Positions 36,963 to 60,100 of a stretch of DNA of 64,000 bases are shown here, one piece after another. The stretch's first letter is position 1. Each line of letters begins with the position of its first letter. A program made the translations under genes and the position numbers. The notes below the pieces were generated by a model. It was not told the origin of the DNA. It saw only the letters and a list, made by a program, of their open reading frames with translations, and made no database searches. Origin of the DNA: the human T2T-CHM13v2.0 reference genome, Homo sapiens; assembly GCF_009914755.1 (NCBI RefSeq), contig NC_060928.1. One strand, written 5' to 3'.

Positions 36963-38274
36963 TATTCTAACTTACTATTTTTAAAAAATTAAAATATGTA
37001 TTTTCATCTGTTGAAGTAACAAACATCCACACACTTTTATTTCCTAGTCTCTTTAGTCAGACCCACAAAATGTAATATTTTAATAAAAGACATTAAGAGT
37101 GAATTCTAGGGCGATGCCAGTTAATTAATAATACTTAATCTTTTACCTTTATTTAAAAATAATTCTCTAGGAGTTTGTGTACTATACAGAATAAATGACA
37201 GACAGTCAAAACTTTCGGTGAGACTGATTGACTACAATAGGTATTATCCATTTAATTATCCATAACATATCGGTTGTGCATTTACTATTTCCAGTAATCT
37301 AATTTCTGGCTAAGCAATCTCTCTAACATTATGACAAGAAAATATTTAAGATGAAGTAAAAGTAACACTGAAAAATACAAAAATAAGCTATCGTCTATTG
37401 CTGCCGGATACAATATGATGAAATACTGATTTTAAAAGAAATATTCTGGAATCATGACAGGAAATGTATTTTATATATCTTAAACTCAAGTCTGTAAAAG
37501 CTAGAATGGGTACACAGAATTGGTATGGTAAGTGGGTCCTGCAGCTGTGTTGGCTCCACAAATGCTTTGCATGTGTTGTTCTTGAAGAGCAAATAAAAGA
37601 GAAACCCCCTCATTTTTCAAGGGTATGGGAATATGTTTCTTTTTTTCATTTTAATAATGGTACCAGATAGGATTCCCATTCTATTTTCTTAAAATATTTG
37701 AAACAGTAAGTAGACACTTCAACTTGAAGACACAGCTGTTCAGACGATTAGGCACAAAAGAAGCCCAACAATATTCTCAAAGTGAAATTGCAATTGTAAT
37801 TATGTGAATGTTAGCTACTGGAATTATAAACATGGGGCCCCAGGAGGAAAACTGGGAAGCTGCCAACTTCATTTTCTGAAACTATTCACATATATCACAA
37901 AGAAACGTACACTTTTCACCCTGCTCTGCTTATTGGCATGCAAACCATCTCCTTGCTCTCTGTTTGAAGAGCTGTTCTTGCTTCTCTTGCTTCTTCTAGT
38001 CAAAGGTGGAAGTCAGGTGGCTGGAAGTTGCTTAAATGATTTCCTCTCATCTGCCCATAATGAACAGCTGCAGTAAATTGCCCAACATCATTTTGAATAT
38101 GCATAAACCAATGAGCAGCTCAGATTTTTTAATGTAACTTTATATTCTTGGCTATTCCGGTGTTTGCATTGTTCATTTTTAAGTCATTTAAAAATTGATA
38201 CAAATCAAATTATTGTTGCAGTTTTATACTAAAAAAAAGACTATTATTATTACAGGACCATTGAGATATGTTTT

Positions 38275-40616
38275 TAAAAAATTATTATTATACTTTAAGT
38301 TCTGGGATACATGTGCAGAACATGCAGGTTTTTTACATAGGTATACACGTGCCATGGTGGTTTGATGCACCCATCACCCCATCATCTACACTAGGTATTT
38401 CTCCTAATGCTATCCCTCCCCTAGTGCCCCAGCCCCCGACAGACCCCTGTGTGTGATGTTCCCCTCCTTGTGTCCGTGGGTTCTCATTGTTCAACTCCCA
38501 CTTATGAGTGAGAACATGCAGTGTTTGGTTTTCTGTTCCTGTGTTAGTTTGCTAAGAATGATGGTTTCCAGCTTGATCCATGTCACTGCAAAGGACATGA
38601 ACTCATCCTTTTTTATGGCTGCATAGTATTCCATGGTGTATATGTACCACGTTTTCTTTATCCGGTCTATCACTGATGGACATTTGGGATGGTTCCAAGT
38701 CTTTGCTATTGTGAACAGTGCTGCAATAAACATACATGTGCATGTGTCTTTATAGTAGAATGATTTATAATCCTTTGGGTGTATACCCAATAATGGAGTT
38801 GCTGGGTCAAATGGTACTTCTGGCTCTAGATCCTTGAGGAATCACCACACTGTCTTCCATAATGGTTGAACTAATGTACACTCCCACCAACAGTGTAAAA
38901 CTGTTCCTATTACTCCACATCCTTTCCAGCATCAGTTGTTTCCTGACTTTTTAATGATCACCATTCTAACTAGTGTGAGATGGTATCTCATTGTGGTTTT
39001 GACTTGCATTTCTCTAGTGACCTGTGATGATGAGCTTTTTTTCATATGTTTGTTGGCCACATAAATGTCTTCTTTTGAGAGGTGTCTGTTCATATCCTTT
39101 GCATACTTTTTGATAAGTTATTTGTTTTTTTTTTCTTGTAAATTTGTTTAAGTTCCTTGTAGATTCTGGATATTAGCCCATTGCCAGATGGATAGATGCA
39201 ACAATTTACTCCCATTCTATAGGTTGCCTGTTCACGCTGATGATAGTTTCTTTTGCTGTGCAGAAGTTCTTTAGTTTAATTAGATCCCATTTGTCAGTTT
39301 TGGCTTTTGTTGCAATTGCTTTTGGTGTTTTAGTCATGAAGTCTTTGCCCATGCCTATGTACTGAATGGTATTGCCTAGGTTTTCTTCTAGGGTTTTTAT
39401 GGTTTTAGGTCTTATGTTTAAGTCTTCAATCCATCTTAAGTTGATTTTTGTATAAGGTGTAAGGAAGGGGTCCAGTTTCAGTTTTCTGCATATCGCTAGC
39501 CAGTTTTCTCAACACCATTTGTTAAATAGGGAATCCTTTCCCCATTGCTTTTTTTTGTCAGGTTTGTCAAAGATCAGATGGTTGTAGATGTGTGGAATTA
39601 TTTCTGAGGCCTCTTTTCTGTTCTATTGGTCTATATCTCTGTTTTGGTACCAGTACCATGCTGTTTTGGTTACTGTAACCTTGTAATATAGTTTGAAATC
39701 AGGTAGCATGATGCCTCCAGCTTTGTCCTTTTTGCTTAGGATTGTCTTTGCTAGATGGGCTCTTTTTTGGGTTCCATATAAAATTTATAGTAGTTTTTTC
39801 TAATTCTGTGAAAAAAGTCGATGGTAGCTTGATGGGGATATCATTGAATCTATAAATTACATTGGGCAGGATGGCCATTTTCATGATATTGATTCTTCCT
39901 ATCCATGAGCATAGAACGTTTTCCATTGGTTTGTGTCCTCTCAAATAATTTCCTTGAGCTCTGGTTTGTACTTCTCCTTGAAGAGGTCCTTCACATCCTT
40001 TGTAAGATGTATGCCTAGGTATTTTATTCTCTTTGTAGCAATTGTGAATGGGAGTTCACTCATGATTTGGCTCTCTGATTGTCTATTATTGGTGTGTAGC
40101 AATGCTTGTGATTTTTGCACATTGATTTTGTATCCTGAGACTTTGCTGAAGTTGCTTATCAGCTTAAGGAGATTTTGGGCTGAGACGATGGGGTTTTCTA
40201 GGTATACAATCATGTCATCTTCAAACAGGGACAATTTGACTTCTTCTCTTCCTATTTGAATATGCTTTATTTCTTTATCTTGCCTGATTGCCCTGGCCAG
40301 AACTCCCAATACTATGTTGAATAGGGGTGGTGAGAGAGGACATCCTTGTCTTGTGCTGTTTTTCAAAGGGAATGCTTCCAGCTTTTACCAATTCACTGTG
40401 ATATTGGCTGTGGGTTTGCCATAAATAGCTCTTATTATTTTGAGGTACATTCCATCAATGCCTAGTTTATTGAGAGTTTTTAGCATGAAGCAGTGTTGAA
40501 TTTTTTCGAAGGTCTTTTCTGCATCTATTGAGATAATCATCTGGTTTTTGTCATTGGTTTTGTTTATGTTATGGATTACATTTATTGATTTGTGTATGTT
40601 TTACCAGCCTTGCATC
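38275..40616 (-). mobile_element. L1PA7-like 3' 2.3 kb (ORF2 C-terminal part, 3'UTR, tail)
   Basis: ORF2 peptides [33 protein letters not shown]; 3'UTR TAAGTTCTGGGATACATGTGCAG. Confidence 0.95.
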
Positions 40617-40639
40617 ATTGATACAAAAGCTTAAACCAG

Positions 40640-40860
40640 GAAAAGTGTTCTGGGGGTGAGCAGTGAATTAGAATGCTGAAGAACTTGTCCTTTCTCATCA
40701 CTGTTTCACTTGTGAACTTTAGTAAGTGGTTTCCTCTCTATTTCATCCTCTCTCAGATAGTAAGAATAGTGCTTATCATAACCATATCAATAGGGAAGTG
40801 TGAAAGACCTTGAAACTGTAGCATACTATCCACTTATAATTAGTGACAAGTGTGTTGAAA
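40640..40860 (+). mobile_element. MIR-like fragment
   Basis: CTTGTGAACTTTAGTAAGTGGTTTCCTCTCTATTTCATCCTCT. Confidence 0.4.
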
Positions 40861-41199
40861 AGAAAGTACTGAATCTTAAAGACATAGACAAGATGGAAGC
40901 TGAATTCAAAAGATTGCCAGTTGGTCAGGGCCCCTTCTACTGCTGCATTTCATAATAGTAGCAGCTGTCTATTGACATTTATATTTTCCACAGTAAAAAT
41001 GAAAGACAAGACTCTAATCATAGAAATAGTGTTTTTCTCTACACAGAATAAAAGACCATGCCAAAAGTTAAAGATATACAGACTTTATGAAATATTTAAT
41101 TTCAAATTTTGGCTTTAGTTCTGAATCAAACTAAGTATGGAACTTCATATACCAAAGGGACTTTTTCCCCTAATAACAACTGCCTAACTACCATATGCT

Positions 41200-42660
41200 A
41201 TATTAATACTGGGCAGTTAAAAATATAAAATCGAAAGCAAAACTATAATATCCTATAAGAGTATACTTATGACTTCCAGAAAAGATGAAATTATTCAACA
41301 AAATACAAAAGTGCAAACTGCAGAGGTAAAGTTTAAAATGCATTAAGATGACTATCAGAAATTCTGATTTCTAACCATCAAAATCAATGAAAAAAAAACA
41401 AAAGAACTACACACTGAGAGATGATATTTTGTAATACACATAAGCAGCAAAGGATTAATCAATATCCAAAAATAAATAAAAAGAATCTTATAATTTGCAA
41501 GAGAAAGAATAACTCACTTGAAATAATAGGGAAAAATCTTAATAGGTACTTCACAGAAAGAAAATCTGAACAGCCAATAAAAGATGCTCAATCTAATAAA
41601 TAATCAAGTAAATAAAAATGAAAACCACATTGAGAGATCATGTATAACTCACTATAGTGGGAAAAAAACAGTTTGTTAATATCTTGTGTTGTTGAGGATG
41701 AGGGTTAACCAGATCACTTATACAAGACTTCTCATGGATACAAAATAATATAACTACTCTGAAAAATAAATTGGCATAATCTATACACTCTTTTGTGTTT
41801 CTTTTTATTTTCTATAAATTAAGAAAAATATTTACTTTGTATTTCTGCATGAATTTATTTCAAGGTAACCAAATAAGTGATAAGGAAAAGTTTTTCTGTA
41901 TAGAAGAATTCAAGCTAACAAATTCAGGATAAATGATAGAATTATAGAGTCACTATTATTCAACCCTTAGTAAAAATATTTAGGTAACTTTCAATAATAG
42001 ATGCTAATAACATTGGGTGAAATTTTATGGGAAATCTTGTAATGAAGTAATTAGACTGACACTATCTGAACCTACTGGTTGAGCTCAGGAGATCTAAAAT
42101 TGGGGCAATAGGCAGTATAGAGCATCACATATTAAAATTTCTTACTCAGAAAAAAATTATACTACATTTAATCAAATCAGTTTACAGGGAATAGAGGAAT
42201 ATGGATAGTAGAACAGACAGCATGATTTTACTGGAGCAGTAAAATCCAGAATGTGAGACATTTTAGGATAATGTTTTTAAGGACCTGGTTTCTCCAACAA
42301 ATCAATAGCATAGAAGATAAAAAGAATGGCGGGGACTGTTGTAAAGGAAAAAAGATGCAAGAGGTCAAGATACAGTGTGAGAAAACATAATGTCACTTGA
42401 AATTTGGTCAAACCAACTATAAGAAATAGACAGTCAATGAAATGTTAATAAAGGTGAAAATAAAATGTGAAGTAGGTATCAGATGACATTAAGGAAAGTA
42501 TTTTGTTAGGCATAATAATGTCAGGATGTTTTCTTTAAAAATGTTACAAGACAAAGATCTATGCTGAAGTGTTTGCAGATGAAATGAGATATCTTACATT
42601 TGCTTTAACAAAACAAAACTGTTAATATAATTAAGTGTTTTAATAAATTATTAGTTATAA
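41200..42660 (+). mobile_element. Old L1M fragments (L1ME ORF2 end ~41200-41790; L1MC-like 3' end ~41860-42660)
   Basis: AAATCTTAATAGGTACTTCACAGAAAG...AAAGATGCTCAA; AATCCAGAATGTGAGACATTT...CCTGGTTTCTCCAACAAATCAAT. Confidence 0.6.
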
Positions 42661-43090
42661 GGGTGGCGATGGAAAACAAGAGGTCTAGGATAACATCTGG
42701 ATTTTGCCTTTGGTTTCAAGGGTGGTGCCATTTGCCAAGACAGGTGACACAGAAGCAACAGGAGGCTTCAGAAATTAAAATGACTTTAATTTTGAACATG
42801 AGTTTTAAGAGTCACAAAGGGCTCGATTGAGTTTGGAAACTATAAATTATTGTAGCAGCCATCCACAGTTTTGTGAAATTTCCTAAAAGTTCCTTCAGCA
42901 GTACCCAGGGATGTAGCTACAAGTGCAGTGAAAAAAATGTCTGGATCAATCTACCTTGGAATGTTAGTAGGTCAGATACAACAAAAGACCAAAAAGACAT
43001 GGGAAATGGGGATTGTTGCAAGAGAGAACTTAAATGATATGTTATCCTAGGTTGGATAGGAAAGTGCTAACTCCGTTAAAGTGATGATGG
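42660..43090 (-). mobile_element. L2 fragment (continues at 44483-44960)
   Basis: GGTGGTGCCATTTGCCAAGACAGG...TTTTGAACATGAG. Confidence 0.5.
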
Positions 43091-43091
43091 G

Positions 43092-43393
43092 AGCCGGGCA
43101 CGGTGGCTCACACCTGTAATCCCAGCACTTTGAGAGACTGAGGCAGGTGGATCACCTGAGGTCAGGAGTTTGAAACCAGCCTGACCAATATGGCAAAATC
43201 CCGTCTCTACTGAAAATACAAAAATTAATCGGATGTGGTTGCGTGCTCCTGTTGTCCCAGCTACTCAGGAGGCTGCAACAAGAGAATTGCTTGAACCCAG
43301 GAGTCGGAGGTTGCAGTGAGCCCAGATTGCTCCATTGCACTCTAGCCTGGGTGACAGAGCACAACTCCATCTCAAAAAAAAAAAAAAAAAAAA
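43092..43393 (+). mobile_element. Alu (AluSx/Sq-like); A tail interrupted by an LTR
   Basis: TSD AAAGTGATGATGGG (43078-43091) / AAAGTGTTGATGGG (44469-44482) encloses Alu plus LTR. Confidence 0.95.
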
Positions 43394-44462
43394 TGTTGCG
43401 GGAAGTCAGGAACCCTGAACGGAGGGACCGGCTGAAGCCATGTCAGAAGAACATAAATTGTGAAGATTTCATAGACATTTATTAGTTTCCCAAATTAATA
43501 CTTTTATAATTTCTTACACCTGTCTTTACTGCAATCTCTGAACATAAATTGTGAAGATTTAATGGACAATTATCACTTCCCCAGTCAATACTCTTGTGAT
43601 TTCCTATGCCTATCTTTACGTTAATCTCTTAATCTCATCATCTTCATAAGCTGAGGATGAATGTCGCCTCAGGACCCTGTGATAATTGCATTAACTGCAC
43701 AAATTGTTTAAACGATATGAAATCTGGGCACCTTGAAAAAAGAACAGGACAACAGCAATGTTCAGGGAACAAGGGAGATAACCTTAAACTCTGGCTGCCT
43801 GTGGGCCAGGCAGAACAGAGCCATATTTCTCTTCTTTCAAAAGCAAATAGGAGAAATACTGCTGAATTCTTTTTCTCAGCAAGGAACATCCCTGAGAAAG
43901 AGAATGCGTCCCTAAGGGGAGGCCTCTGAAATGGCCGCTTTGGTGACAGCCGTCTTTTACAGTTGTGGATAAGGGATAAAATAAGCCCCAGTCTCCCATA
44001 GCGCTCTCAGGCTTATTAGGACGAGGAAATTCCCACTTAAAAAATTTTGGTCAGACTGGTTGTCTGCTCTCAAACCCTGTCTCCTGATAAGATGTTATCA
44101 ATGACAATGCGTGCCCGAAACTTCATTAGCAATTTTAATTTCGCCCTGGTCCTGTGGTCCTGTGATCTCGCCCTGCCTCCATTTGCCTTGTGATATTTTA
44201 TTACCTTGTGAAGCATGTGATCTCTGTGACCCACACCCTATTCGTACACTCCTTCCCCTTTTGAAAATCACTAATAAAAATTTGCTGGTTTTACGGCTCA
44301 GGGGGCATCACAGAACCAGCCGACGTGTGATGTCTCCCCTGGACACCCAGCTTTAAAATTTCTCTCTTTTGTACTCTGTCCCTTTATTTCTCAGGCCAGG
44401 TGACACTTAAAGAAAATGGAAAAGAACCTATGTGAAATATTGGGTGTGAATTTCCCCCGAAA
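43394..44462 (+). mobile_element. MER11C-like solo LTR (HERV-K11/HML-8)
   Basis: Starts TGTTGCGGGAAGTCAGG, internal 91-bp repeat GAACATAAATTGTGAAGATTT, AATAAA at ~44273, ends GAATTTCCCCCGA; ~1.07 kb. Confidence 0.9.
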
Positions 44463-45163
44463 AAAAAAAAAGTGTTGATGGGTTAGGAAGTCTTCAGATA
44501 ATATCAGTAAGGGTGGATAGAGGATAATAGGCATCTCAGGGGAGGTAAGTATTGTTATAATCATCAAATAATGATCTGAATACAGCAGTGGAGGGTTAAA
44601 GCAAAATGCTGCTACTTAATTTGGGGGTTCTATAGTTAAGTAAGAGGGAATAAAAAGTTTTAGCTTGCATGCTATTTAGAAGGGAGTAGAAGAACCCATC
44701 TGTGAATAGATTGGCAGTGTAGAGTAGATGCTAGGTGATAGATAAGGGTTCTAGAATAAAAGGCAATGGTCAGTAGCAAATAGAATGTAAGTGTGAAAGA
44801 ATGGGTGTCCTGGAATAGGACAGAGATGAGAGAAATGAGAGTAAGCTGGTCAGGGGCCAGCACTTTGGCTGATGACCAAAGACAAGTGGAGGAAAACATG
44901 TTAGATGAGCTGCTCTTGAGCCTTATGGGCAGACCAAGTCCCAAGTGCTGCAAAAGCCTCATGAGATTAGCAAATTTTAGGTGCTACTTATCATTGAAAA
45001 GGAATGTCACTGGGAATTTACTTATCTTGTCTCTGAAGAATCCTTTTTCTCAGGCTGTTAAAGGAAAAAAAAAAACAACACATCAATGCTTATTCCTTAT
45101 TTTATGATTTATTTTTATATTAATAATCAGTTGTATCAAATTCCTATTATATATACTTTGCCA

Positions 45164-46194
45164 TTTTTAAAATTTTTTTATTATTATTTCTTAATTATAA
45201 TTTAAGTTCTGGGATACATGTGCAAAATGTGCAGGTTTGTTACATACGTATACACGTGCCATGGTTGTTTGATGCACCCATCAACCCATCATCTACATTA
45301 GGTATTTCTCCTAATGCTATCCCTCCTTCCTAGTCCCCCACCCCCTGACAGGCACAGTGTTTGATGTTCCCCTCCCTGTGTCCATGTGTTCTCATTGTTC
45401 AACCCCCACTTATGAGTGAGAACATGTGGTGTTTGGTTTCCTGTTCCTGTGTTAGTTTGCAGAGAATGATGGTTTCCAGCTTCATCCATGTCCCTGCAAA
45501 GGACATGAACTCATCCTTTTTTATGGCTGCATAGTATTCCATGGTATATATGTGCCACATTTTCTTTATCCAGTCTATCATTGATGGACATTTGGGTTGG
45601 TTCCAAGTCTTTGCTATGGTGAACAGTGCTGCAATAGACATACGTGTGCATGTGTCCTTATAGTAGAATTATTTATAATCCTTTGGGCATATACCCAGTA
45701 ATGGGATTGCTGGGCCAAATAGTGGTTCTGGTTCTAGATCCTTGAGGAATCGCCACACTGTCTTCCACAATGGTTGAACTAAGGTACACTCCCACCAACA
45801 GTGTAAAACCTTTCCTATTTCTCCACATTCTCTCCAGCATCCGTTGTTTACTGACGTTTTAATGATTGTGATTCTATCTGTGGTGAGATGGTATCTCACT
45901 GTGGTTTTGATTTGCATTTCTCTAATGACCTGTAATTATGAGTTTTTTTTCATATGTTTGTTGGCCGCATAATGTCTTCTTTTGAGAAGTGTCTGTTCAT
46001 ACCCTTTGCCCACTTTTTGATAAGTCGTTTGTTTTGTTCTCATAAATTTGTTTAAGTTCCTTGTAGATTCTGGATATTAGCCCTTTGTCAGATGAATAGA
46101 TTGCAAAATTTTTCTCCCATCTGTAGGTTGCCTGTTCATGCTGATGACAGTTTCTTTTGCTGTGCAGAAGCTCTTTAGTTTAGTTAGATTCCCA
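45164..46194 (-). mobile_element. L1PA7-like 3' 1.0 kb (second 3' end)
   Basis: Tail, 3'UTR and ORF2 C-terminal peptides (KTWNQPKCPSMIDWIKKMWHIYTMEYY). Confidence 0.95.
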
Positions 46195-46278: not shown

Positions 46279-47236
46279 ACTTGAAGAGGCAGTCTTAGCA
46301 GAGCTCGAGCACTATGCTGGGAGATCCATTGCTCTCTTCAGATCCAGCAGGCAGGAACGTTTGAGTCTGCTGAAGCTGCACCCATGGATGCCCCTTCTCC
46401 CAGATGCTCTCTCTCAGGGAGAGAGGATCTTTATCTATAAGCCCATGACTGGGGTTGCTGCCTTTCTTTCAGAGATGCCCTGCCCAGAGAGGAGGAATCT
46501 AGAGAGGCAGTGGCTTTACCAAGCTGCAGTGGGTTCCACCCAGTTCGAACTTCCTGGCAGCTTTGTTTACACTGTGAGTGGAAAACTGCCTACTCAAGCC
46601 TCAGTAATGGTGGATGCCCCTCTCCCCACCAAGCTCAAGCATCCCAGGTTGACTTTAGACTGCTGTGCTGGCAGCAAGAGTTTCAAGCCAGTGGATCTTA
46701 GCTTGCTGGGCTCCCTGGGGGTGGGATCGGCTGAACTAGACCACTTGGTTACCTGGTTCAGCCCCCTTTCCAGGGGAGTGAATGGTTCTGCCTGGCTGGT
46801 GTTCTAGGCACCACTGGGGTATGAAAAAAAACTCCTGCAGCTAGCTCTGTGTCTGCCCAAATGGCCACCTGGTTTTGTGCTTGAAACCCAGGGCCCTGGT
46901 GGTGTAGGCACCCAAGGGAATCTCTGTTCTGTGGATTGCGAAGACCTTGGGAAAAGCGTAGTTTCTGGGCCAGAATGCACCATTCCTCATGGCATGGTCC
47001 CTCGCAGCTTCCTTTGGCTAGGGGAGGGAGTTCTCTGACCCCTTGCACTTCCCGGGTGAGGCAACGCCTCATCCTGCTTCAGCTCACCCTCTGTGGGCTG
47101 CACACACTGTCTAATCAGTCTCAATGAGATGAGCTGGGTACCTCAGTTAGAAATGCAGAAATCACCTACCTTCTGCATTTGTCTTGCTGGGAACTGCAGA
47201 CCGGAGCTGTTTCTATTTGGCCATCTTGCCAGCCAC
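46275..47236 (-). mobile_element. L1PA7-like 5'UTR with intact 5' end
   Basis: Ends ...GGCCATCTTGCCAGCCAC (YY1-site region AAGATGGCC on the minus strand), immediately followed by TSD TGAGATATGTTTT. Confidence 0.9.
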
Positions 47237-47722
47237 TGAGATATGTTTTAATTTATTTTCTGTATATTTTGGAAATTCCTAGCAACCTTTGGCAAAAGCT
47301 AGAGAAAATTTTCCTTTTCAAAGTTCCAAAAACATTTTATTTAGTCTCTTTTATGATTACTCCTCACAATAATTAATCCTATTTTGGGCTGTTGATGATA
47401 GTCATTTGCTCTTGTCAAATAATGTATTCCTTTCCACATTTTCTTCTCTATTGTTAGGACAGTACTAAAACTTTGTAACTTTTCATTAGTTTTCACTTTT
47501 TTTACTCAGTTCTTCTCTGTGTCCAGCTGTACATTTGTTGTATCCTTTAATGTTTTCAAAACATTTTAATTTTTCAAAATTATTCATTCTCTAGATGTGT
47601 CTTATTATTGTCTTAAATTTCCTCCTAAATTCTACTTTATTGCTTTTAGTCTAACTTGAGATATTTTCATATAATGTTTTTGAACAAAAGGAAAAAACAT
47701 TGGTTATCATTTGCATTTAAGG

Positions 47723-51486: not shown

Positions 51487-52239
51487 AGTTACTTGATTTC
51501 TTTTTCAGATTGTTTGCTATTGGCATATATAAATGCCACTGATTTTCATATATTGATTTTGTGTCTTGCAAATTTACTGAATTCATTTATCAGTTCTAAC
51601 AGTTTTTCTTTTTTTTTTTTTTGGTAGAGTCTTTAGGTTTTTCTACGTATAAGATTATGTCATTTGCAAACAGGGCTAATTTGATTTTTTCCTTTTCAAT
51701 TAGAATGTCCTTCATTTATTTGTCTTGCCTCACTGCTCTGGTGAGAACTTCTAATATTATGCTGAATATAAGTGGTGAAAGTGGGCAACCTTGTCTTGTT
51801 GCTGATCTTAGAGGAAAGGCTTTCCATTTTCCCCTCTTCAGTACAATGATAGCTGTGGGTTTATTGCCTTCATTATTTTGAGTTTCATTCCCTCCACTCC
51901 CAACTCATTAAGGGTTTTTTATTATAAAAAAACCCTTTTTTATTAGTCTTGCTAGCAGTCTGTCGATTTTGTTGTTATAAAAAAAAAACCCGTAGTGCGT
52001 CGTGAATTTTATGGAATTTTTTTTCATTTTTTAAAAATATACTTTAAGTTCTAGGGTACTTGTGCACAACGTGCAGGCTTGTTACATAGGTATACATGTG
52101 CCATGTTGGTTTGCTGAACCCATTAACTCGTCATTTACATTAGGTATTTCTCCTAATGCTATCCATCCTCTTGCCCCCCTCCCCATGACAGACCCCCATG
52201 TGTGATGTTCCCCGCCCTATGTCCAAGTGTTCTCATTGT

Positions 52240-56097
<3,858 letters not shown>

Positions 56098-56160
56098 TAT
56101 GATGTTAGCTGGTTATTTTGCCCGTTAGTTGATGCAGTTTCTTCCTAGCCTCGATGATCT

Positions 56161-57185
56161 TTACAATTTGGCATGTTTTTGCAGTGGCTGGTACTGGTGT
56201 TTACTTTTCATGTTTAGTGCTTCTTTCAGGAGCTCTTTTAGGGCAGGCCTGGTGGTGACAAAATCTCTCAGCATTTGCTTGTCTGTAAAGGATTTTATTT
56301 CCCCTTCACTTATGAAGCATGGTTTGGCTGGATATGAAATTCTGGGTTGAAAATTCTTTTCTTTAATAATGTTGAATATTGGCCCCCACTCTCTTCTGGC
56401 TTATAGAGTTTCTCCCAAGTGATCTGCTATTAGTCTGATGGTCTTCCCTTTGTGGGTAACCCGACCTTTCTCTCTGGCTGCCCTTAACATTTTTTCCCTC
56501 ATTTCAACCTTGATGAATCTGACAATTATGTGTCTTGGGGTTGCTCTTCTCGAGGAGTATCTTTGTGGTGTTCTCCATATTTCCTGAATTTGAATGTTGG
56601 CGTGCCTTGCTAGGTTGCAGAAGTTCTCCTGGATAATATCCTGAAGAGTGTTTTCCAAATTGGTTCCATTCTCCCCGTCACTTTCACGTACACTGATCAA
56701 ACGAAGATTTGGTCTTTTCACATTGTCCCATATTTCTTGGAGTTTTTTTCATTTCTTTTTACTCTTTTTTTCTCTAAACTTCTCCTCTTGCTTTATTTTA
56801 TTAATTTTATATTCAATCATTGATACACATTATTCAACTTGATCGAATCGGCTATTGAAGCTTATGCATGCATCACGTAGTTCTCTTGCCATGTTTTCAG
56901 CTCCATCATGTCATTTAAGGTCTTTTCTACACTGTTTATTCTAGTTAGCCATTCATCTAATCTTTTTTCAAGGTTTTTAGCTTCCTTGCAATGTGTTTGA
57001 ACATCCTCCTTTAGCTTGGAGAAGTTTGTTATTACCGACCTTCTGAAGCCTACTTCTATCAGCTCATCAAAGTCATTCTCCATCCAGCTTTGTTGCATTG
57101 CTGGTGAGGAGCTGTGATCCTTTGGACCAGAAGAGGTGCTTTGGTTTTTAGAATTTTCAGCTTTTCTCCTCTGATTTCTCCCCAT
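56161..57185 (-). pseudogene. Disrupted L1 ORF1
   Basis: MGRNQRRKAENSKNQS..., KRPNLRLI, RATPRHIIVRF in separate frames. Confidence 0.95.
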
Positions 57186-60100
57186 CTTTGTGGTTTTATC
57201 TATCTTTGGTCTTTGATGCTGATGCCTACAGATGGGGTTTTGGTGTGGATGTCCTTTTTGTTGATGTTGCTGCTATTCCTTTCTGTTTGTTAGTTTTCCT
57301 TCTAAGTATCAGGTCCCTCAGCTGCAGGTCTGTTGGAGTTTGCTGGAGGTCTACTCCAGACCCTGTTTACCTGGGTATCACCAGTGGAGGCTGCAGAACA
57401 GCAAATATTGCAGAGCAGCAAATATTGCTGCCAGATCCTTCCTCTGGAAGCTTCCTCCCAGAGGGGCACCCACTTGTATGAGTTGGCCCCTTCTGGGAGG
57501 TGTCTCCCAGTTAGGTTACACAGGGATCAGTGACCCACTTGAGGAGGCAGTCTGTCCGTTCTCAGAGCTCAAATGCTGTGGTGGGAGAACCACTGCTCTC
57601 TTCAGAGCTGTCAGACAGGGACATTTAAGTCTGCAGAAGTTTCTGCTGCCTTTTGTTCAGCTATGCCCTGCCCCCAGAGGTGGGGTCTACAGAGGCAGCA
57701 GGTCTTGCAGAGCTGTAGTGGGCTGCACCCAGTTTGAGCTTCCCCATCCACTATGTTTACCCACTCAAGTCTCAGCAATGGCAGACACCCCTCACACTGC
57801 CAGGCTGCTGCCTTGCAGGTCAATCTCAGACTCCTGCACTAGCAGTGAGCAAGGCTCCACGGGTGTGGGACCTGCTGAGGCAGGCGCAGGATATAATCTC
57901 TTCATGTGTTGTTTGCTATGATCATTGGAAAAGCACAGTATGTGGGTGGGAGTGTCCCTATTTTCCAGGTACAGTCTGTCATGACTTCCCTTTGCTAGGA
58001 AAGGGAAATCCCCCAACCCCTTGTGCTTCTCAGGTGAGGCAATGCCCTGCCCTGCTTCAGCTCACCCTCCATGGGCTGCACCCACTGTCTGACCAGTCCC
58101 AATGAGATGAACCATACCTCAGTTGGAAATGCAGAAATCACTGTCTTCTGCATCAATCACACTGGGAGCTGCAGACCCAAGCTGTTCCTATTCGGCCATC
58201 TTGGAATGGAATCTTTTATGGGATTTTTATAGCATCTAATGAAATTATCATATTGTTTTTGTCCTTGGTTCTGTTAGTATGATGTATCACATCTCAATTT
58301 TCATATTTTGAACCATCCTTGCATTTCTAGAATGAATTGCACTAAATCATAGTGAATGATCTTTTTAACATGTTGTATTTTTGAATTCAGTCTGCTATTA
58401 TTTTGTTGAGGATTTTGTATCTATATTTATCAATGATAATGGCCTGTAGTTTTATTTTTGTTATATCCTTTTCTGGTTTTGATATCAGGATAATGCTGGC
58501 CTGGTAGAATAAGTTTAGAAGTATTCCCTCCTCTTCAATTTTTTTGAAAAGTTTGGTAGGATTGGTGTTAGTTCTTTAAATTTTTGGCAAACTCAACTAC
58601 AAAGCTATCAGATTCTGGGCTTTTCTCTGAGGAAAGACTTTTTTATTATAGCTTCAATTTGATTACTCATTATTGGTTTGTTGATGTTTTCTACTTCTTC
58701 ATGATTCAATCTCGGTAGGTTTTATGTGTCCAGGAATTTACTCATTTCTGCTAGGTTTTCCAATGTATTGGCACACAGTTGTTCATAATAGTCTATGGTG
58801 ATTATTTGTATTTCTGTGGTCTAAGTTGTTATGTCTCCTTTTTTATTTCTGGTTTTATTTATTTGGGTCCTCTCTCTTCTTATGTTAGTATAGTTAGTTT
58901 GTTAATTTTATTTATCTTTTCAAAAAACCAACTTTTCATTTTGTTGATATTCTGTATTTTTTTAGTGTCAATTTTCTTTATTTCTGCTCTGAAGTTTATT
59001 ACTTTTTTCCTTCTGCTAATTTGGGGTTTGGCTTGTTCTTGCTTTTCTAAATTCTTTGAGGTTCATCATTAGGTTGTTTATTTGAAGTTTTTCTGCTTTT
59101 TTGATGTAGGTGTTTATTGCTATAAACTTCCCTCTTAGCACTGCTCTTACTGTATCCCATAGATTTGGTATGTTGTATTTCCATTTTTCATTAGTTTCAA
59201 GAATATTTTAAAATTTTCTTCTTTATTTCTTCATTCACCCATTGGTCATTGAAGAGCATGTTGTTTGATTTCCATGTGTTTGTGTATTTTCCAAAGTTCC
59301 TCTTGATATTGATTTCTTGTTTTATTATATTATGATCTGAAAACATACTTGATATGATTTATGCTTTTGACTGCATTATTTTCTGTTGTTTCTCCTACTT
59401 TCATACTCAGATGTGGGAAGTTTTTCATATTTACTAAGTTGTATGCAACAACATTTAATTGTGATTGCTATGTATTTTTGTGGGGATAATTAATAGGTGT
59501 GAGTGTGTGTTTACATAAAAATAATGTCATCTTTCCATAGCTAAAGCTTGAGATTTTATTTTTTCAAAGATGAAAGAAAAAAATATATCAGTCCCCAGTT
59601 TGTTCTCCTCCTCTCAAATCATATCATTATGATACAATAATATCATAAAAACTTCAAGAATTGGCATTGACGGAAAAAATAAAACAAATCTATATTTTTT
59701 CATAAATATCTAGTGCAAACTTATGAGGAAAGATATTCACTATTTTTTTACTTTAATTTTCCCACTTTTTTCACTGTTATCTCACAATGTAATGCCTTGC
59801 TAGTGGTTGTAAAGTTTATTTTATAGCAGACACAAGAGTTAACTTTTGTCTGAAATTCTTCATGTGTGGCATTAGTTTAGTCCAAAGTCTACATTTAAAT
59901 AGATAAATTCCATTTATAAAAACTGCATTTCAAGCCAAAATTGTTTTCAGGGTATTTGACTGCAGTGTGCTGCTGAAAGCCAGTCTTCAGGGGATTCCTC
60001 CTTTTTCTTTCTGTCTTTTCTACTTGGGAAATCCCCATTTCAGTAAATAGTTACTATTTAAGGATTCTCTTATATTTCCTTTTTTAAATTTATCATCAAT

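What the first reader, a model, noticed from the sequence alone, without database searches (positions are those of the whole stretch)
38361..46145. The two L1PA7 3' ends share apparently private substitutions
Seen: both copies carry TTTGATGCACC (38361, 45268), TGACCTGT (39018, 45926), TTTTTGATAAGT (39107, 46014) and TTCA(C/T)GCTGATGA (39231, 46135). The L1PA6 in this window has TTTGCTG, TGACCAGT, TTTTTGATGCAG and TTCACTCTGATGG at those sites. The two copies otherwise differ at many positions. Inference: both derive from one source element in an old event, independently supporting the composite-insertion model.
Basis: partly seen in the sequence, partly recalled or inferred. Interest (0 to 1): 0.7.

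Follow-up and report, generated by a model that had tools for sequence, protein, structure and literature searches.

The report
Old DNA-repair scar inside a LINE-1
The two LINE-1 ends share rare mutations and lie inside one element that also holds a 3.5-kb inverted copy of DNA from 212 kb away, most likely because a DNA repair or replication accident tens of millions of years ago re-copied the end of an already dead element; it is probably a neutral fossil of a known kind of rearrangement, not the trace of an active jumping gene.

Summary
All eight motifs are where stated. The alleles are rare: site 1 is in 41 of 6,884 genomic matches; a two-site haplotype is in 3 of 3,784, two of them these copies. 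A tree of 63 ends makes the copies sisters (95/90). One 13-bp target-site duplication brackets the whole 9-kb block. The spacer between the copies is an inverted copy of chr4:84,200,239-84,203,738, 212 kb away in the same gene. About 3.15 kb of the L1 middle is missing and about 90 bp of 5'UTR is duplicated in reverse. All duplicated parts are equally diverged (7.4-9.5% non-CpG), which fits one event. The donor site has no L1, the spacer has no poly(A), four junctions show short microhomology, and the shared alleles are amino-acid-changing plus a shared 1-nt loss in ORF2. Best reading (0.65): DNA-level template switching (MMBIR/SDSA-like) inside one resident, dead L1PA7-like element. Main rival (0.2): 3' transduction from a vanished source L1. 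A known class of event; this locus was not found in print.

The parts
38262..38274 (.). Left copy of the 13-bp target-site duplication (TGAGATATGTTTT)
   Evidence: longest common string of the two block flanks; 2 copies in the window; 0 of 5,000 random draws of 40-nt pairs reach 13
38275..38288 (-). Decayed poly(A) tail of copy A, interrupted by a T-run in element sense
38289..40616 (-). Copy A: last 2.33 kb of an L1PA7-like element (3'UTR and ORF2 3' part; subfamily name recalled, not tested against Dfam)
38365..39236 (-). Shared rare alleles in A at 38365, 38876, 38901, 39023, 39115-39118 (with a 1-nt loss) and 39236; matching B positions 45272, 45784, 45809, 45931, 46022-46025, 46140
40612..40622 (.). 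Junction 1, L1 to captured DNA: imperfect 8-of-10 microhomology between the L1 continuation and the donor; no poly(A)
   Evidence: null P about 0.02
40620..45167 (.). Captured spacer: inverted copy of chr4:84,200,239-84,203,738 (L061:3740-7239), 3.5 kb once the later LTR is set aside
   Evidence: the only long paralog found in the genome, 89-91% identical
43093..43393 (+). Alu shared with the donor at the same place, so older than the duplication
43394..44461 (+). Solo LTR (MER11-like, name recalled) in the Alu tail, absent from the donor, so inserted after the duplication
   Evidence: best genomic relatives 92% identical
45163..45194 (-). Junction 2 (TTTTA shared by donor and A's tail edge) and tail of copy B, with the same interrupted pattern as A's tail
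   Evidence: the pattern is in A, B and 1 of 59 relatives
45195..46192 (-). Copy B: second copy of the last 1.0 kb of the L1
46185..46278 (+). Inverted duplicate of about 90-100 nt of the element's own 5'UTR (template about 46817-46924); junction 3 microhomology AGAT(T)CCC followed by a 12-nt skip; junction 4 microhomology CCC(C)A
46279..47236 (-). First 0.96 kb of the L1 5'UTR, reaching the element's 5' start; ORF1 and the 5' part of ORF2 (about 3.15 kb) are missing
   Evidence: 6 of 6 5'UTR relatives tested have a same-family 3' end about 4.7-5.8 kb away
47237..47249 (.). Right copy of the target-site duplication; followed by AA, so the empty site reads TTTT/AA

Best explanation
The two L1 ends are sister copies inside one 9-kb block under a single target-site duplication, and they most likely arose when DNA repair or replication switched templates four times inside an already dead, full-length L1 that had lain at this site for a few million years. 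Inferred path along the + strand: synthesis ran through the tail and 2.33 kb of the element (A); jumped to an opposite-strand template 212 kb away and copied 3.5 kb; came back at a T-run to the element's own tail and re-copied 1.0 kb (B); copied about 100 nt of the 5'UTR backwards; then resumed in the 5'UTR, losing about 3.15 kb. Shown: the parts, their origin, their order, the equal divergences and the shared alleles. Inferred: the DNA-level mechanism, a single event, a dead resident ancestor, and the age (19-35 Myr for assumed rates of 2.2 to 1.2e-9 per site per year).
For: One 13-bp duplication around the whole block, none around B or the spacer. The 5'UTR and A belong to one family and fit one full-length element. 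One donor, same chromosome, 212 kb away, inverted. No L1 in the 9 kb fetched around the donor. No poly(A) at the spacer's far end; the nearest canonical hexamers lie 480-680 nt upstream and 3 AATAAA plus 4 ATTAAA lie inside it. Non-CpG divergence 79/964 (A-B), 197/2445 and 51/688 (spacer-donor), 8/84 (inverted pair): homogeneous, P=0.89. Microhomology at all four junctions. The four rare shared ORF2 point changes are all non-synonymous (K>T, L>V, L>Q, R>S). Both copies are 1 nt short at site 3, about 207 codons before the ORF2 stop and upstream of the Cys-rich motif. B's tail has A's interrupted pattern, seen in 1 of 59 relatives. No third sister found. No A-to-G excess in the copied Alu, 1 of 27 changes. 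The MMBIR model lists these outcomes: mixed deletion, duplication and inversion, 2-5 bp microhomology, switches tens to hundreds of kb away (PMC2621351, passages).
Against: The donor breakpoint reads TTTT/AG on the bottom strand, like an L1 endonuclease site, and B + tail + spacer has the order of a 3' transduction. Junctions 2 and 4 are only 4-6 nt and could be chance; junction 1 is imperfect (P about 0.02); junction 3 was not given a proper null. The site-3 region is an indel hot spot (31 nt in 19, 27 nt in 17, 30 nt in 8 of the 63 rows), so the ancestral frameshift is likely, not certain. A looser interrupted-tail pattern occurs in 10 of 59 relatives. The exact-pattern searches would miss a third sister mutated in each motif. 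The shared-allele excess is modest: P=0.024 by a crude count, 0.0004-0.003 by simulation, and 1 of the other 1,890 pairs scores higher. The tree bootstrap had not settled. No other primate genome could be examined.
Confidence: 0.65

Rival explanations
1. 3' transduction from a vanished source. A full-length L1 once sat at chr4:84,200,239 in the sense of CFAP299. Its read-through RNA was reverse transcribed here with several template jumps, giving A, the flank, B and the 5'UTR in one insertion. The source allele was later lost.
For: The donor breakpoint resembles an endonuclease site and the spacer lies 3' of B's tail in the right orientation. One target-site duplication and an intact 5' start are expected of one retrotransposition event. 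Equal divergences fit too.
Against: No L1 or remnant at the donor. No second poly(A) after the flank, which is how partnered 3' transductions are recognised (PMC12350158, passages). The ancestor had non-synonymous changes and probably a frameshift, so it would need rare mobilisation in trans (cis preference: PMC5860796, passages). It also needs a 212-kb local hop, three jumps including one onto an antisense template, and clean loss of an element old enough to carry about 0.5% private change.
Confidence: 0.2
2. Retrotransposition-coupled capture. The rearrangement happened during an L1 insertion, or two nearby simultaneous nicks, with ORF2p or host repair copying genomic DNA from the donor into the nascent insertion.
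For: Insertions with templated genomic DNA near the site are seen in L1-expressing cells (PMC11702581, passages). It explains an endonuclease-like donor site that stayed empty.
Against: Still needs an unseen source that already carried the shared damaging alleles and left no other copy found.
Confidence: 0.1
3. Two independent insertions, later homogenised by old gene conversion, or sharing alleles by chance or by sub-lineage.
For: The copies are 9.3-9.8% apart and are not each other's best hit. Two shared alleles also occur in C and a few others.
Against: One target-site duplication around both and none around B. The spacer is foreign DNA of the same age. Differences are even along the 1 kb (5-13 per 100 columns). 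Haplotype counts of 3 of 3,784 and 41 of 6,884.
Confidence: 0.05

Closest known systems
Repair-mediated duplications inside transposable elements (Pace et al. 2009, PMC2671141; read: abstract, introduction, results parts 1-3 of 8, passages, searches of Table S1)
   Same: DNA captured inside an old repeat from a single donor on the same chromosome; microhomology, deletion and filler at the breakpoints; chimeric acceptors with more than one donor; many date to the primate and catarrhine stems.
   Different: Their confident class is under 5 kb away and at most 619 bp; distant cases (max 3,424 bp) were left unclassified. This one is 3.5 kb from 212 kb away, has three templates, and loses about 3.15 kb of the host, which their filter (host ends within 30 bp) would exclude. 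Table S1 showed no C4orf22 row, 2 L1PA7 rows at other loci, and no coordinate at my recalled hg18 position; only 30 of 143 chr4 entries were viewed.
FoSTeS/MMBIR complex rearrangements (Hastings, Ira, Lupski 2009, PMC2621351; passages)
   Same: Several template switches, short microhomology, mixed deletion, duplication and inversion, paired inverted switches that restore orientation, distances of tens to hundreds of kb.
   Different: Described for recent disease alleles with exact junctions. This is an apparently fixed fossil with 8% decay, so junctions are blurred and MMBIR cannot be told from multi-template SDSA.
L1 3' transduction (definition as in PMC12350158; passages)
   Same: L1 3' end, then A-rich tail, then unique DNA from one other locus; outer target-site duplication.
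   Different: No second poly(A), no full-length L1 at the donor, and a second L1 3' end follows the unique DNA.
L1 insertions with templated genomic DNA (PMC11702581, preprint; passages)
   Same: L1 sequence joined to copied genomic DNA and local inversions.
   Different: Those arise during insertion from an active element; here the shared alleles point to a copy made after the element had decayed.

Membership tests
Repair/replication-mediated duplication (RD, MMBIR-like) | Inserted DNA interrupts a repeat and has one donor elsewhere in the genome | tested here: met
Repair/replication-mediated duplication (RD, MMBIR-like) | Microhomology, deletion or filler at the breakpoints | tested here: met
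   Four junctions with about 4-8 shared nt and a 3.15-kb loss; individually weak
Repair/replication-mediated duplication (RD, MMBIR-like) | No poly(A) tail and no target-site duplication of the captured piece | tested here: inconclusive
   None at junction 1 and no duplication around the spacer; an A-rich tail is present at junction 2 and is read here as the host L1's own tail
Repair/replication-mediated duplication (RD, MMBIR-like) | Donor within 5 kb (confident class of Pace et al.) | tested here: not met
   212 kb; fits the MMBIR range, not the strict proximal class
Repair/replication-mediated duplication (RD, MMBIR-like) | Unrearranged pre-event allele in an outgroup species | not testable with these tools
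   No relative genomes are held
L1 3' transduction | Unique DNA directly 3' of an L1 tail | tested here: met
L1 3' transduction | Second poly(A) after the transduced DNA | tested here: not met
L1 3' transduction | Full-length source L1 upstream of the donor sequence | tested here: not met
   None in chr4:84,196,500-84,205,500 of this genome; a lost allele cannot be excluded
L1 3' transduction | Source able to retrotranspose in cis | tested here: inconclusive
   Shared non-synonymous changes and a probable shared frameshift in an indel-prone region; that the Cys-rich domain is needed is recalled
L1PA7 subfamily | Diagnostic match to the Dfam/Repbase consensus | not testable with these tools
Segmental duplication (over 1 kb, over 90% identity) | Length and identity thresholds | tested here: inconclusive
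   3.5 kb at 89-91%, borderline; annotation tracks not available

The most novel reading that the evidence does not exclude
The block records a ghost source: an L1 that lay 212 kb away, is gone without a scar, and whose read-through RNA was copied in one insertion with three reverse-transcriptase template jumps, one of them onto an antisense 5'UTR template, yielding two copies of its own 3' end and 3.5 kb of flank.
Probability: 0.2. Interest if true: 0.55.

Novelty: new member of a known kind. Interest (0 to 1): 0.33.

Why it matters
It is probably neutral: deep in a CFAP299 intron, with no exon or annotated element. Its value is as a worked case. A DNA-level rearrangement can mimic an L1 3' transduction (L1 end, tail, foreign flank, outer target-site duplication), so transduction catalogues of old elements may hold such impostors. 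It also shows a multi-switch event, larger and further-reaching than the catalogued repair-mediated duplications, surviving for tens of millions of years. Private alleles shared by a repeat and its own partial copy let one estimate both the age of the event and the time the element had already lain there. If the rival holds, it would be a rare record of a lost source L1.

Tried and rejected
Local tandem duplication: the spacer has no non-repeat paralog in the window. Alleles being subfamily consensus: rejected for all sites except the last base of site 4. A third sister: L070 (chr7) shares 39115/39116 and 39236 but without the 1-nt loss and none of the other sites; L071 (chrX) shares 38680, 38876 and 38901 only and groups with L041. 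Splicing of the spacer: no gap of 8 nt or more against the donor. RNA editing in the copied Alu: 1 A-to-G of 27 copy-specific changes, low power. A short gene-conversion tract: differences are even. Continuity of an old repeat across the donor and acceptor empty sites: no usable hits. Spliced L1 (SpIRE): considered and dropped because an inverted piece sits between the 5'UTR and B; splice sites were judged by eye only. The junction-3 null used a window cut too short and is not relied on. The whole genome was not available as a file, so a tree of all L1PA7 copies was not built; 63 ends were used. Three papers I wanted (Szak 2003, Khan 2006, Gilbert 2005) were not held under the ids tried and are not cited as evidence. 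Earlier scan findings were not available.
Full report
Observation. The eight motifs are at the stated positions and the third L1 in the window (C) differs at each site. I collected the closest genomic relatives of each copy: 60 loci, of which 3 were the window itself and 5 duplicates, leaving 52. In their alignment A (38290-39290) and B (45195-46192) share alleles found in 1-4 of 52 relatives at 38365, 38876, 38901, 39023, 39115, 39116 and 39236. No relative has more than 2 of the 7. Exact genome-wide counts agree: the site-1 allele is in 41 of 6,884 matches; the 38876+38901 pair in 3 of 3,784; sites 2+3 give 4 matches, of which only A and B read as L1; sites 3+4 give 9, of which 3 read as L1. 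The two extra L1 hits were fetched and lack the other alleles.

Strength of the sister claim. A tree of 63 ends joins A and B at 95/90, one of 2 starred branches of 60, though the bootstrap had not settled. A crude count gave 8 shared derived columns of 962 against 3.4 expected (P=0.024). A rarity-weighted simulation gave P=0.0004, or 0.003 counting the complex site once; A-B ranks 2nd of 1,891 pairs, behind L041-L071. Against: the copies are 9.3-9.8% apart and not mutual best hits, and 38680 and perhaps 38876 may be sub-lineage alleles. The allele evidence is good but not overwhelming alone; the anatomy is what settles common origin.

Anatomy. A 13-bp duplication at 38262 and 47237 brackets the block. 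It occurs twice in the window, 0 of 5,000 random draws reach that length, and nothing comparable brackets B or the spacer. The empty site reads TTTT/AA. Inside, on the minus strand, lie a full 5' start with 0.96 kb of 5'UTR, a reversed duplicate of about 90-100 nt of that 5'UTR, B with its tail, the spacer, then A with its tail. Six of six 5'UTR relatives tested carry a same-family 3' end at about the expected distance, so the 5'UTR and A fit one element missing 3.14-3.17 kb.

Origin of the spacer. Both halves have one long paralog, chr4:84,200,239-84,203,738, inverted, 212 kb away and inside the same gene. An Alu is shared; a solo LTR is only in the window copy and so came later. The 9 kb fetched around the donor holds no match to these L1 ends. 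Its breakpoint reads TTTT/AG on the bottom strand. The far end of the spacer has no poly(A), and the last hexamers are 480-680 nt upstream.

One event. Non-CpG divergence is 8.2% for A-B, 8.1% and 7.4% for the spacer halves and 9.5% for the inverted pair; homogeneity P=0.89. The shared Alu is higher (13.3%), which I put down to CpG decay (inference). Pooled corrected distance 0.085 gives 19-35 Myr for assumed rates of 2.2 to 1.2e-9 per site per year (the 2.2e-9 figure is from PMC2671141, the others are my assumptions). About five or six private changes per kb against about 46 later changes per copy suggest the element had lain there roughly a tenth as long again before being copied (inference).

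Mechanism. Each junction has short homology: 8 of 10 nt at junction 1 (null P=0.02), TTTTA at junction 2, AGAT(T)CCC plus a 12-nt skip at junction 3, CCC(C)A at junction 4. The four rare shared ORF2 point changes all alter the amino acid, and the one synonymous shared change is the common 38680 allele. Both copies are 1 nt short at site 3, upstream of the Cys-rich motif, though the region is indel-prone. This is the pattern of a resident dead copy, not a replicating source; L1 proteins prefer their own RNA (PMC5860796, passages), and that the Cys-rich domain is required is recalled. B's tail repeats A's interrupted pattern, found in 1 of 59 relatives; a looser version is in 10 of 59. The simplest account is four DNA template switches inside the resident element. 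It explains the nearby donor, the empty donor site, the lack of poly(A), the lack of a third copy and the endonuclease-like donor motif (as the T-run used for the switch) without a lost element. I give it 0.65. Transduction from a lost source gets 0.2, insertion-coupled capture 0.1, independent insertions 0.05.

Comparison with what is known. It works like the repair-mediated duplications of Pace et al. (PMC2671141) and the MMBIR model (PMC2621351). It fails the strict proximal class (donor within 5 kb) and fails two defining features of 3' transduction (second poly(A), source L1; PMC12350158). Templated genomic DNA in fresh L1 insertions is described in PMC11702581. I did not find this locus in print: searches (listings only, except the papers named) and Table S1 of Pace et al. 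(partial view, with hg18 position recalled). Subscription papers, segmental-duplication tracks and other supplements were not visible and may list the pair.

Verdict. Observation confirmed; sister relationship supported; the active-source, composite-insertion reading is probably wrong. A new member of a known kind, likely neutral, of modest interest (0.33) as a clean case of a DNA-level event mimicking a transduction.

Noticed in passing
window 52010-58220: Element C is a full-length L1 (about 6.2 kb, minus strand) inserted into an older L1, with similar sequence at both ends that may be a target-site duplication (near 52003-52020 and 58209-58226; by eye).
   Followed up: no
window 39115-39140 and relatives: This stretch of ORF2 is an indel hot spot: 27 nt in 17 and 31 nt in 19 of 63 rows, so a 4-nt loss recurs or marks a sub-group.
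   Followed up: partly
L041 (chr7:156.49 Mb) and L071 (chrX:15.83 Mb): These two copies share 10 derived columns and group at 98/85 next to C; probably a real sub-lineage or another parent-daughter pair.
   Followed up: no
one search hit list: 9 of the 41 site-1 allele matches are on chr4 (7 without A and B); probably chance.
   Followed up: no
window 43394-44461: A solo LTR sits in the poly(A) tail of the duplicated Alu and gives a lower bound on the age of the rearrangement; best relatives 92% identical.
   Followed up: partly
L061:3680-3800: The donor breakpoint seems to lie within a very old repeat fragment (L2-like by recall); no alignment could confirm continuity across it.
   Followed up: partly
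window 47236-47240 and 38258-38262: The L1 5' start and the target flank beyond the duplication share 3 further bases, a common feature of L1 5' junctions (recalled).
   Followed up: no
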